Source: Octopus sinensis (Eukaryota). Taken from it: a DNA stretch of 15,741 nucleotides. Below, in pieces: positions 7,932 to 9,778 of the stretch; position 1 is the first letter of the stretch, and each line of letters begins with the position of its first letter. The stretch is taken from NCBI RefSeq assembly GCF_006345805.1, contig NW_021825379.1, positions 1-15,741 on the forward strand. The letters are read 5' to 3'. The position numbers were made by a program.

Positions 7932-9778
7932 TGTACTTTATAATTAGGGTTCAGCAAAGATTTGCTTTACCACATACCGAAGTTTAGAAATAGCAGTCAA
8001 AAAAACCTTAGCTATTTCTTCTACTTTAAAAAGGGACTCCCAGAAAAACCAAAAATACTTGAAAACAATCCACGCAGGCAGAGAGGAAAAATGACGAAAA
8101 TCAATCTATATCTGGTCACCCATGTACACGTGTTTCGGAATTAGATCGGTATAAAGAATATAGAATTGTACTTTACCCAACCATTTTCCTTCATCAGCAT
8201 GGGACTCCAACAATATTAAATATTAAATATTAAATTCGAAGGTACTGAAAGAATTGAATATATCTCTCCACCTAACGGTATCAGACAGATCATATTCAGT
8301 GCTAGTACCGCCGAATTCAAAATACGAATGCGGTTCATCACCTTCCCCTGCCCATCCGCGTGTGTCGTCAAGTAAGATGCTACAGAAAAATCTGCAGTTT
8401 GTTATCAGGGAGAAAATTCTATTATCAATAATGACAAAGGGTAAAATTAATTAATTAAGAAGTAATCAAAAATTTCACCAAGTAGAATTCGGCATGAAAA
8501 AAGAGCATTTCACGGTAAACTTAAGTAATACTTTATAATTAAGGTTCAGCAAAGATTTGCTTTACCACATACCGAAGTTTAGCAATAACAGTCAAAAAAC
8601 CTTAGCAATTTCTTCTACTTTAAAAAGGGACTCCTAAAAAAACCCAAATACTTGAAAACAATCCACACAGGCAGAGAGGAAAAATAACGAAAATCAATCT
8701 ATATCTGGTCACCAGAAATAGCTATATATATACAATTAGAGTATTATATTGTAGTTAGTTCATCTCTGACATCTCTTCGCTCCCTGAACTCGCTCTTTTT
8801 CTCCTTCTTTCCTTTCTTTTGTTTATACCTTCCTTCTATGTCACAGTATCTCATACCCATATCCTTGTACACATTTACACATTTCTATATTATCCTTCAC
8901 ATTCCTCATGCCTCCCATTTCACCTTACTCCCACACCAGCTCCCATACATACTTTCCCCATGCACGTACCCCCCACTCTCTCTCACACACACATTCACAG
9001 AAACACTTCACACCCCAAATAACATACGTCTCCTGAACTTTCATACTTCTGCACACATACACATACCCGCAAACCCACTACACTACTTCCTTATATGCTC
9101 ATAACTAAACACAGATACACCCTTATACTTGCGCATACCCGACCACCTTCCCTCCTTAACTACGATAGAACCGCATTCTCACTTGGCTACTATCCCATCA
9201 CTGTTTGTTTTCTGTTTTTTTTTCTTTTTGCTGTCATCGACATTTTCTCATTCACATACACATCTATGCATTTCTCTATTCTCTTGCTTCTGATGAATGA
9301 CTAAAGACCGAAACGTTAGGGCTCTTATCCTTCTTTTATACGTTTAGTTAACAGATTTTTGTTTTTAAACTTTTTTTCTACGTGTGTTGCCTCCTTTTTT
9401 TTTATCGTTCATTACATATACATTATATATACCAAAAATTCACAACGACCTCGAACCCACAAGAGAGAGAGTAAGAGAGAGAGAGAGACAGACAGAGAGA
9501 GAGAGAGAGACAGAGAGAGAAACAGGCAGAAATAATGAAAATATCACTAGTATTTGAACACTATGCAAATATTCTTTTAAAAACTTTTCTTTTAATTTTT
9601 CCAAAATTTAATTGTTTTCCATACTTACAGTTGAAAAAGTCTCAATGACTGAAATCGGTCCTAAAACGTTTTTTATACAATTATTTTATCATTTTCTATC
9701 CTGACTTTTTATATATATATATATATATCAATACGTGTGTTCCTTTTCAACCTTCTACACACCCACACACCCACCCAA

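What the first reader, a model, noticed from the sequence alone, without database searches (positions are those of the whole stretch)
7934..8722. Retrozyme-like element: 595-nt non-coding unit whose terminal repeat begins at the hammerhead cleavage site
Seen: a ~187-bp direct repeat with a 595-bp period, one intact type I HHR on the minus strand, no ORF, and (TA)n on both flanks. On the ribozyme strand the element's 5' end (8713, GGUGACCAG...) lies only 4 nt into the predicted 3' cleavage product (CAUG-GGUGACCAG...). Known: Penelope-like elements carry HHRs in partial-tandem pseudo-LTRs, and metazoan non-LTR retrozymes are HHR-containing repeats processed into circular RNAs. Inference: this copy is a reverse transcript of a self-cleaved, possibly circular, ~595-nt RNA copied about 1.3 times and mobilised in trans by a Penelope-type RT. 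It may be an undescribed cephalopod retrozyme family with a large monomer.
Basis: partly seen in the sequence, partly recalled or inferred. Interest (0 to 1): 0.9.

Follow-up and report, generated by a model that had tools for sequence, protein, structure and literature searches.

The report
Hammerhead-bearing Penelope-type non-coding retroelement copy
A 0.8-kb non-coding insertion carries a self-cleaving hammerhead RNA motif of the kind found in Penelope-like retroelements and animal "retrozymes", a known class, but one end sits almost exactly at the predicted RNA cut site, which is a useful lead.

Summary
A 187/185-nt direct repeat (94% identical, spacing 595/593) brackets a 408-nt unique part. 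The minus strand at 8203→8119 carries a complete type I hammerhead core. My descriptor finds 1 match in the window, and 4 of 2000 shuffles give any. Rfam aligns it end to end but far below threshold: 13.1 bits against 34.

The upstream partial copy starts 4 nt inside the predicted 3' cleavage product. No ORF exceeds 75 aa and there is no Pfam hit. The element lies in the (TA)n tail of a SINE.

New here:
- The 595-nt unit folds on the ribozyme strand into a long self-paired structure, z −7.1 against −3.3 on the other strand.
- Two hammerheads can pair through a palindromic helix III.
- The 5' junction carries 8–11 self-derived bases.

Best reading: an ORF-less Penelope-dependent element, a retrozyme in the broad sense, copied from a linear ribozyme-cut RNA. 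A circle is not needed. Copy number, host and expression could not be tested. The monomer size is not exceptional: published consensus lengths run 51–972 bp. It is a new member of a known kind, of moderate interest.

The parts
7934..8120 (-). R: the 3'-terminal 187 nt of the full unit on the ribozyme strand. This is the downstream copy of the direct repeat. It begins 4 nt after the predicted cut.
8121..8528 (-). U: the 408-nt unique part of the 595-nt unit. The hammerhead lies at its 3' end.
8529..8713 (-). R': the upstream, 5'-truncated partial unit of 185 nt, 94.1% identical to R. Its first base (8713) equals helix-I position 1.5 of the hammerhead.
8119..8203 (-). Type I hammerhead motif of 85 nt. 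Helix I is 6 bp, then CUGAUGA, an extra A and a 4-bp helix II that closes a 45-nt extended hairpin. GAAA follows, then a 1-bp helix III with the palindromic loop ACGU. The predicted cut lies between 8125 and 8124, after GUA.
   Evidence: Descriptor: 1 hit in the window, 4 of 2000 shuffles with any hit. RF00163 full-length alignment at 13.1 bits, below the gathering score of 34. Helices I and II are recovered in the MFE folds.
8321..8527 (-). 5' half of U. In the predicted fold it pairs co-linearly with R (7975-8112) through 11 helices of 4-14 bp, placing the hammerhead at one end of a long self-paired structure.
   Evidence: background
7975..8112 (-). The part of R that pairs with the 5' half of U in the predicted fold.
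8714..8724 (.). Extra bases at the 5' junction. They are the exact reverse complement of 8009-8019. With 8699-8709 they also form a 10/11 palindrome centred on 8710.
   Evidence: Background: 14 of 14869 window 11-mers match the element; 0 of 11839 non-AT-rich positions show such a palindrome.
7888..7932 (.). (TA)n next to the element's 3' end. It is the microsatellite tail of the SINE copy at 7730-7890 and the presumed target.
8724..8732 (.). Short (TA)n remnant on the other side of the insertion.

Best explanation
This is one old insertion of an ORF-less, hammerhead-bearing retroelement of the Penelope-like (PLE) / animal non-LTR retrozyme kind. It consists of 1.31 head-to-tail units of a 595-nt sequence on the minus strand and lies in the (TA)n tail of a SINE.

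Shown: the partial-tandem layout R'-U-R; a complete hammerhead core with the hallmarks of metazoan PLE/retrozyme hammerheads; no coding capacity; AT-microsatellite flanks; and a strongly, strand-specifically self-paired predicted RNA.

Inferred mechanism:
1. A longer-than-unit transcript of a tandem source copy was cut by an upstream hammerhead, probably acting as a dimer through the palindromic helix III. That cut made the RNA 5' end.
2. A PLE reverse transcriptase/endonuclease supplied in trans nicked the AT-rich target.
3. It began cDNA synthesis at an internal site about 191 nt downstream of the next, uncut hammerhead and copied to the RNA's 5' end.
4. The last few bases were lost and 8-11 self-derived bases were added at the junction.

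The same product would arise from linear cut monomers joined by an end-to-end template jump. A circular template is possible for the family but is not what this copy's ends suggest. With only one hammerhead, this locus is probably a dead-end 'monomer derivative'.
For: Layout and identity of the repeat.

Hammerhead: 1 descriptor hit in the window, against 4 of 2000 shuffles with any hit. RF00163 aligns over all 45 model positions at the same coordinates.

Several features were not demanded by my descriptor yet match what Cervera & de la Pena 2014 (PMC4209133, whole main text read) list as non-random hallmarks:
- a G10.1-C11.1 pair;
- a palindromic 15.2-16.2 pair plus loop 3 (CACGUG);
- helix I of 6 bp, helix II of 4 bp and helix III of 1 bp.

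Dimer: co-folding two copies forms an 8-bp intermolecular helix III while keeping helices I and II, -62.5 against 2 x -26.6 kcal/mol.

Boundary: it lies 4 nt from the cut, 9/595 = 0.015 by chance.

Structure: the unit 7934-8528 on the minus strand has MFE -175.6 against -127.5 +/- 6.8 for shuffles, z -7.08, with 0 of 100 shuffles as stable. The plus strand gives z -3.34. There are 206 pairs, 26 of them G-U, and the hammerhead junction is kept. The R'-U permutation gives z -4.80 against -2.40. Retrozyme RNAs are described as 'highly self-paired' (PMC7229834, passages).

Coding and composition: no ORF or Pfam hit. GC is 35%, below the <45-50% stated for animal retrozymes.

Target: AT-rich DNA or (TA)n is the documented preference of EN+ PLEs (PMC8557442 passages; PMC11167929 main text).

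Architecture: partial tandems forming pseudo-LTRs, with the hammerhead near the 3' end, are the PLE norm. Internal RT initiation about 85-92 nt downstream of the hammerhead cut is shown for the anole PLE.

Junction: the self-derived bases at the 5' junction are rare by local background.
Against: - Only one copy could be examined, so every inference about ends rests on n = 1.
- The Rfam score is far below threshold. The 53 nt of helix II between A8190 and GAAA and the extra A are untested for activity.
- No RT/EN gene lies in the window, and no target-site duplication can be read in the (TA)n.
- The end is 4 nt off the cut, not on it.
- For the only PLE studied in vitro, hammerhead mutants did not affect insertion, and no RNA-seq reads began or ended at the cut (PMC11167929).
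- The fold z-score has a heavy-tailed local background. 3 of 22 control strand-segments reached z <= -7.08, all of them with >= 13% simple repeats. Among the 8 without simple repeats the extreme was -5.07. Only 11 of the window's 595-nt segments were run, with 12 shuffles each.
- R and R' differ by 5%, so the copy is old and its present ends may have been reshaped.
Confidence: 0.6

Rival explanations
1. This is the remnant of a once longer tandem array (retrozyme or hammerhead satellite) trimmed by deletions, or a local DNA-level duplication of one unit. On this view the present ends say nothing about an RNA template.
For: Animal retrozymes and hammerhead satellites occur as tandem arrays that grow and shrink by unequal crossover (Li et al. 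2026 Discussion; PMC7229834). The two repeat copies differ by 5%. That is as expected for neighbouring units of an old array, and equally for an old insertion.
Against: The upstream end falls 4 nt from the predicted cut (chance 0.015). The downstream end abuts a (TA)n on one side with a (TA) remnant on the other, as for an insertion into a microsatellite. The 5' junction carries self-derived bases of the kind RTs leave.
Confidence: 0.2
2. This is a fragment of an autonomous Penelope-like element: pseudo-LTR plus untranslated region, with the ORF lost by internal deletion. It would then not be an independent non-autonomous family.
For: Most PLE hammerheads in a genome are single motifs attributed to truncated PLEs (PMC4209133). 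In Xenopus, 24 of 57 retrozyme families are similar to PLE termini. Octopus vulgaris is reported to hold 30 recently active Penelope families (PMC13282606 passages), which matters only if the host is an octopus.
Against: No trace of RT or GIY-YIG is seen in any frame of the element or window. A clean 595-nt unit with a co-linear 5'/3' self-paired fold looks like a unit shaped as an RNA rather than a deletion product. The two readings differ more in name than in mechanism.
Confidence: 0.15
3. The hammerhead-like motif is a chance occurrence in an unrelated duplicated sequence.
For: The descriptor rate of 4 hits in 2000 shuffles of 15.7 kb scales to about a hundred chance matches per gigabase. 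Rfam does not pass it.
Against: The motif has features the descriptor did not ask for: a perfect 6-bp helix I, the extra base before a G-C pair at 10.1-11.1, and the palindrome CACGUG. It also lies next to the repeat boundary and on the better-folding strand.
Confidence: 0.05

Closest known systems
Minimal/atypical type I hammerheads in the pseudo-LTRs of metazoan Penelope-like elements (Cervera & de la Pena 2014, PMC4209133)
   Same: Both have an unpaired base between A9 and G10.1, a G10.1-C11.1 pair, and a palindromic 15.2-16.2 pair plus loop 3 that predicts action as a dimer. Both sit in a partial-tandem repeat near the unit's 3' end, with AT-rich targets.
   Different: No RT/GIY-YIG ORF is present. 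Helix I (6 bp) and helix II (4 bp) have the 'canonical' sizes rather than the short-I/long-II sizes of min-HHRs. Helix II carries a 45-nt extension. Only one hammerhead is present, because the upstream copy begins just after it.
Animal non-LTR retrozymes (Cervera & de la Pena 2020, PMC7229834; Li et al. 2026 preprint 10.64898/2026.07.22.740005)
   Same: Both are non-coding, of low GC, and carry a type I hammerhead with a weak palindromic helix III (as in axolotl HHR_Amex1). The predicted RNA is highly self-paired, the unit length lies within the published 51-972 bp, and a PLE origin or dependence is proposed.
   Different: The family is defined by tandem arrays with a hammerhead in every unit and by abundant circular RNA. 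Here there are 1.31 units and a single hammerhead, and expression and copy number are unknown.
Anole Poseidon PLE (PAc) mobilisation model (Frangieh et al. 2024, PMC11167929)
   Same: The model has a multi-unit transcript, nicking of AT-rich DNA, and RT initiation at an internal site a short way downstream of the hammerhead cut (85-92 nt in PAc, 191 nt here). This gives a pseudo-LTR.
   Different: In PAc, cleavage was dispensable in vitro and no RNA ends mapped to the cut. Here the copy's 5' end lies 4 nt from it.
Plant LTR retrozymes / TRIM-like elements (Cervera et al. 2016, PMC4918200; search listing and abstract only)
   Same: Both have two direct terminal repeats around a short non-coding core, a hammerhead, and a 600-800-nt RNA.
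   Different: Plant elements carry type III hammerheads inside both LTRs, plus a PBS, a PPT, 4-bp TSDs and GC above 55%. None of these is present here.

Membership tests
Hammerhead ribozyme, type I | Conserved core: C3 U4 G5 A6 N7 G8 A9, G12 A13 A14, A15.1-U16.1, and H17 at the cut | tested here: met
   All are present at 8197-8191, 8136-8133, 8126 and 8125. RF00163 aligns the same columns.
Hammerhead ribozyme, type I | Three helices around the core, with helix I open | tested here: met
   Helix I is 6/6 Watson-Crick. Helix II is 4 bp plus an extension. Helix III is 1 bp plus a tetraloop. Helices I and II appear in the MFE folds of 111 nt and 595 nt.
Hammerhead ribozyme, type I | Reaches the curated Rfam score (RF00163, 34 bits) | tested here: not met
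   The score is 13.1 bits, E 1.6, in a 116-nt search. Nothing is found in wider searches. The alignment places 54 nt where the model has 14.
Hammerhead ribozyme, type I | Self-cleavage activity | not testable with these tools
   This needs in vitro transcription of monomer and dimer constructs.
PLE-type hammerhead (Cervera & de la Pena 2014) | Extra base between positions 9 and 10.1; G10.1-C11.1; palindromic 15.2-16.2 and loop 3 | tested here: met
   A8190; G8189-C8137; CACGUG at 8132-8127. The dimer fold gains 9.3 kcal/mol through an 8-bp helix III. The criteria come from PMC4209133.
Penelope-like element (autonomous) | ORF with RT and GIY-YIG endonuclease | tested here: not met
   No such domain appears in 21 window ORFs scanned against Pfam at E <= 0.1. 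These 21 were chosen from the 48 frames of >= 70 aa, leaving out the microsatellite-encoded ones. The longest frame in the element is 75 aa.
Penelope-like element (architecture) | Partial-tandem insertion forming pseudo-LTRs, with the hammerhead near the 3' end | tested here: met
   The layout is R'-U-R with a 5'-truncated upstream unit. The cut lies 191 nt from the 3' end of the unit. The criterion comes from PMC8557442.
Penelope-like element (architecture) | Insertion into AT-rich DNA or (TA)n | tested here: met
   (TA)n at 7888-7932 and a TA remnant at 8724-8732. 11% of window positions lie within 12 nt of a (TA)4+ run, so this is weak on its own.
Animal non-LTR retrozyme | Tandem array of units, each with a type I hammerhead (at least a dimer) | tested here: not met
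   This locus has 1.31 units and one hammerhead. It would count as a 'monomer derivative' in the terms of Li et al. 2026.
Animal non-LTR retrozyme | Non-coding, low GC, no LTR/PBS/PPT | tested here: met
   GC is 34.8% and there is no ORF. Read by eye, there are no TG...CA termini, no tRNA-complementary site after the upstream repeat, no polypurine tract before the downstream one, and no short TSD.
Animal non-LTR retrozyme | Highly self-paired RNA | tested here: inconclusive
   z is -7.08 on the ribozyme strand and -3.34 on the other. The local background is heavy-tailed, and with one sequence there is no covariation test.
Animal non-LTR retrozyme | Many genomic copies; expressed as linear and circular RNA | not testable with these tools
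   No animal genome or transcriptome collection was open. The ORF-proxy search was shown by its control to be uninformative. Prokaryote scans gave 0.
Plant-type LTR retrozyme / TRIM | Hammerhead (type III) inside both LTRs, plus PBS, PPT and a 4-bp TSD | tested here: not met
   The hammerhead is type I and lies outside the repeat. None of the LTR signals is seen.

The most novel reading that the evidence does not exclude
The 595-nt unit belongs to a multi-copy, rod-like hammerhead RNA family of this (reportedly cephalopod) genome. The family is mobilised by a Penelope RT from linear, ribozyme-cut templates. Its genomic copies would then pile up with 5' ends at the cleavage site and 3' ends at a fixed internal RT start. 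That would be the first in vivo footprint showing that hammerhead cleavage defines the template of PLE-type retrotransposition. The role of these hammerheads is called unclear in PMC8557442, and no such RNA ends were seen for the anole element (PMC11167929).
Probability: 0.2. Interest if true: 0.6.

Novelty: new member of a known kind. Interest (0 to 1): 0.35.

Why it matters
Hammerheads are present in almost all Penelope-like elements and in animal retrozymes, yet what they do during transposition is unsettled. The only biochemical study found cleavage dispensable in vitro. A genomic copy whose upstream end coincides with the predicted cut is the kind of footprint that could settle this, provided it recurs across many copies. 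As a single locus it adds only one more hammerhead-bearing non-coding element to a class already catalogued in most animal phyla. In the papers I could search, none describes such elements in cephalopods: searches found 2, 4 and 3 papers holding the term pairs, and none is on this subject by title. Species lists in supplements were closed.

Tried and rejected
- **Rfam.** At gathering score over the whole window it gave 0 matches. At E <= 10 over 7600-9000 it gave 17 weak matches, none a hammerhead; most were microsatellite artefacts. Only a 116-nt search showed RF00163, below threshold.
- **ARAGORN.** 0 tRNA genes in the window.
- **Proxy for other copies.** The 75-aa minus-strand frame of the element found no candidate among 5.8 billion protein clusters. 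As a control, a frame from another repeat with two copies in this window found only 1 protein. The protein set therefore barely samples such frames, and the negative says nothing about copy number.
- **Prokaryote scans.** Exact scans of the genome collection with a 23-nt hammerhead stretch and a 24-nt R stretch gave 0 and 0. This is uninformative, because the collection holds no animals.
- **LTR/TRIM reading.** Rejected by eye: no TG...CA termini, PBS, PPT or TSD.
- **R alone as a structured 3' module.** z 0.07, not unusual.
- **Hammerhead region alone.** z -1.74, with 11 of 200 shuffles folding as well. It is not unusual by energy.
- **Literature search.** It was badly set (any 2 of 5 terms) and returned only general cephalopod papers. 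One search replaced it.
- **Paper supplements.** Closed. The hammerhead and retrozyme species tables of PMC4209133 and PMC7229834 may list cephalopods.
- **Protein tools.** No structure or complex prediction was run, because no protein is involved.
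Full report
**1. What is there**

The window is AT-rich DNA (35% GC) full of microsatellites, with no N. Between 7934 and 8713 lies a block built as R'-U-R when read on the minus strand:
- R' is 8713→8529 (185 nt).
- U is 8528→8121 (408 nt).
- R is 8120→7934 (187 nt).

R and R' are 94.1% identical: 176 matches, 6 transitions, 3 transversions and 2 one-base gaps, K2P 0.05. Start-to-start spacing is 595, then 593 after the indels. 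No third copy or fragment exists in the 15.7-kb window. The block is therefore 1.31 head-to-tail copies of a 595-nt unit: a full unit (8528→7934) preceded by the last 185 nt of another.

**2. The hammerhead**

The minus strand at 8203→8119 reads as follows:
- CCCAUG (helix I, 5' side);
- CUGAUGA, then one extra A;
- GGAA…UUCC (helix II, 4 bp), closing a 45-nt imperfect hairpin;
- GAAA;
- C-ACGU-G (a 1-bp helix III with a tetraloop);
- UA, then the predicted cut between 8125 and 8124;
- CAUGGG (helix I, 3' side).

All invariant core positions are present. A deliberately relaxed descriptor of my own allowed helix I at ≥5/6 pairs with G-U, helix II at ≥4 closing pairs, an optional extra base, and loop 3 of 0–6 nt. 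It finds this site and no other on either strand. 4 of 2000 dinucleotide shuffles of the whole window yield any hit. That is rare for one window, but it corresponds to roughly a hundred chance hits per gigabase, so the match alone proves little.

Rfam does not pass it. There is nothing at gathering score and nothing at E ≤ 10 over 1.4 kb. In a 116-nt search RF00163 aligns all 45 model positions exactly as I read them by hand, but scores 13.1 bits against a threshold of 34. The cost comes from 54 nt standing where the model has 14.

What lifts the motif above chance is a set of features my descriptor did not ask for. Cervera & de la Peña (PMC4209133, main text read) name these as the non-random hallmarks of metazoan hammerheads in Penelope-like elements:
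- a base between positions 9 and 10.1;
- the G10.1-C11.1 pair;
- a palindromic 15.2-16.2 pair plus loop 3, here the perfect palindrome CACGUG.

Helix sizes of 6, 4 and 1 bp are those the same paper gives for 'canonical' metazoan type I motifs. Such a weak helix III predicts poor activity as a single motif and activity as a dimer. Co-folding two copies of 8218→8108 does form an 8-bp intermolecular helix III while keeping helices I and II, at −62.5 against 2 × −26.6 kcal/mol. The hammerhead region by itself is not unusually stable: z −1.74, with 11 of 200 shuffles folding as well.

**3. The ends**

R' begins at 8713, which corresponds to 8120, helix-I position 1.5. The upstream partial unit therefore starts 4 nt inside the predicted 3' cleavage product and lacks the whole catalytic part of the ribozyme. 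That is why the locus has only one hammerhead. A boundary placed at random in a 595-nt unit would fall within ±4 nt of the cut with probability 9/595 = 0.015. This is suggestive, but it is one observation.

Beyond 8713 come about 8–11 bases (8714–8724) that are self-derived:
- They are an 11/11 reverse complement of 8009–8019. As background, 14 of 14869 window 11-mers outside the element match it on either strand.
- Together with 8699–8709 they make a 10/11 palindrome around 8710. As background, 0 of 11839 non-AT-rich positions and 40 of 14840 positions overall show this.

I cannot say which source is the true one. Either is the sort of snap-back or template-switch product that reverse transcriptases leave at the end of a template.

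The other end (7934) abuts a (TA)n of 45 nt, which is the tail of a SINE copy at 7730–7890. Four copies of this SINE, about 82% alike, lie in the window, each ending in a microsatellite. A short TA run follows the extra bases on the far side. The simplest reading is an insertion into that (TA)n, and no target duplication can be read in such a target. 11% of window positions lie within 12 nt of a (TA)4+ run, so this point is weak on its own.

**4. Coding and structure**

The longest stop-to-stop frames in the element are 75 aa, one on each strand, and the longest ATG-ORFs are 25 and 40 aa. Neither 75-aa frame has a Pfam hit at E ≤ 0.1. I scanned 21 window frames, chosen from the 48 of ≥70 aa by leaving out the microsatellite-encoded ones, and none shows RT or GIY-YIG.

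- The full unit on the ribozyme strand folds to −175.6 kcal/mol, against −127.5 ± 6.8 for 100 dinucleotide shuffles. That is z −7.08, with none as stable.
- The plus strand gives z −3.34.
- The other permutation, R'-U (8713→8125), gives z −4.80 against −2.40.

The fold has 206 pairs, 26 of them G-U. The 5' half of U (8527→8321) pairs co-linearly with R (7975→8112) through eleven helices of 4–14 bp. The hammerhead three-way junction stays intact at one end.

A caution applies. 595-nt control segments of the same window have a heavy-tailed z distribution. 3 of 22 strand-segments reached ≤ −7.08, all with ≥13% simple repeats. Among the 8 without simple repeats the extreme was −5.07. Only the first 11 segments were run, with 12 shuffles each. 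The element itself has no simple repeat by the same mask. The structure signal is therefore real but moderate, and with a single sequence no covariation test is possible.

**5. How it most likely works**

The anatomy fits what is known of Penelope-like elements:
- Insertions are partial tandems whose repeated part forms pseudo-LTRs.
- Hammerheads lie near the 3' end.
- Preferred targets are (TA)n or other AT-rich DNA (PMC8557442, passages).
- For the anole element, the RT nicks AT-rich DNA and starts cDNA synthesis at an internal RNA site 85–92 nt downstream of the hammerhead cut (PMC11167929, main text).

Here the unit's 3' end lies 191 nt downstream of the cut. I therefore read this copy as the cDNA of a longer-than-unit linear RNA. 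Its 5' end had been made by an upstream hammerhead, and it still contained one uncut hammerhead. It was copied from a fixed internal start to the RNA's 5' end by a PLE enzyme supplied in trans.

Cut linear monomers joined by an end-to-end template jump would give the same product. A circular template, as in the retrozyme model of PMC7229834, is not excluded for the family. But a circle offers no reason for the cDNA to end at the cut, so this copy's ends do not argue for one.

The layout, motif, flanks and predicted fold are shown. The cleavage, the enzyme, the trans mobilisation and the order of events are inferred.

One published result cuts against the cleavage step. In the anole system, hammerhead mutants inserted normally in vitro, and no RNA-seq reads began or ended at the cut.

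**6. Comparison with the known**

The element works like a non-autonomous PLE derivative. Li et al. (2026 preprint; Results and Discussion read) argue that animal non-LTR retrozymes are exactly that. They report consensus lengths of 51–972 bp and frequent 'monomer derivatives'.

This locus fails the defining retrozyme feature of a tandem array with a hammerhead in every unit. It also fails the defining PLE feature of an RT/endonuclease ORF. It meets the hammerhead, pseudo-LTR, target, non-coding and low-GC features. Plant-type LTR retrozymes and TRIMs are excluded: the hammerhead is type I and lies outside the repeats, and there is no PBS, PPT or TSD.

The 595-nt size is not remarkable. If the host is an octopus, autonomous Penelope families are reported there (PMC13282606, passages).

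**7. What stayed unchecked**

Copy number, the positions of other copies' ends, similarity to a catalogued PLE, expression and circularity were all unchecked. A protein-space proxy for extra copies was tried and shown by its own control to be uninformative. Scans of prokaryotic genomes gave nothing, as expected.

**8. Verdict**

This is a real, probably old, ORF-less hammerhead element of the Penelope/retrozyme kind, and a new member of a known kind. The end-at-the-cut footprint and the strand-specific fold make it a reasonable seed for a genome-wide test of whether hammerhead cleavage shapes PLE-type templates. As a single locus it merits moderate interest (0.35), not 0.9.

Noticed in passing
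window 7730-7890 (+), 13519-13675 (-), 4719-4875 (-), 14659-14793 (+): Four copies of a roughly 160-nt SINE-like repeat, about 82% identical to one another. Each ends in a microsatellite, (TA)n or (ATGT)n. ARAGORN calls no tRNA in them.
   Followed up: partly
window 14305-14571 (+): An 89-aa frame matches the Pfam COX2 transmembrane domain above its cut-off (29 bits against 22.8, E 1.3e-6). It is probably a nuclear copy of a mitochondrial gene fragment.
   Followed up: no
window 1766-2017 (-) and 6378-6602 (+): Two copies of another repeat whose frames translate to similar 74-83-aa peptides. The first found a single 79%-identical unnamed protein in the 5.8-billion-cluster set.
   Followed up: partly
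window 4966-5635 (-): Two adjacent open frames of 80 and 101 aa without low-complexity content and without any Pfam hit at E <= 0.1. They may be a decayed transposon gene. From memory they look helicase-like; this was not tested.
   Followed up: no
window 8714-8724: The bases between the element's 5' end and the TA flank are the exact reverse complement of 8009-8019. They also complete a palindrome with 8699-8709. I could not decide which source is real, a snap-back or a template switch.
   Followed up: partly
window 7987-8018 (-): In R a hairpin forms in the predicted fold of the unit: an 8-bp run, 8018-8011 with 7994-7987, which I read by eye as extending to 9 bp (8019-8011 with 7997-7989). 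Read by eye, three substitutions in R' break the corresponding hairpin. So R' has decayed, or came from a different unit than R.
   Followed up: no
window 1191-1785: Adjacent (CA)n and (TG)n runs make this segment fold far better than its shuffles (z -12.5 and -8.4). This is a reminder that fold z-scores in this window are inflated by microsatellites.
   Followed up: no
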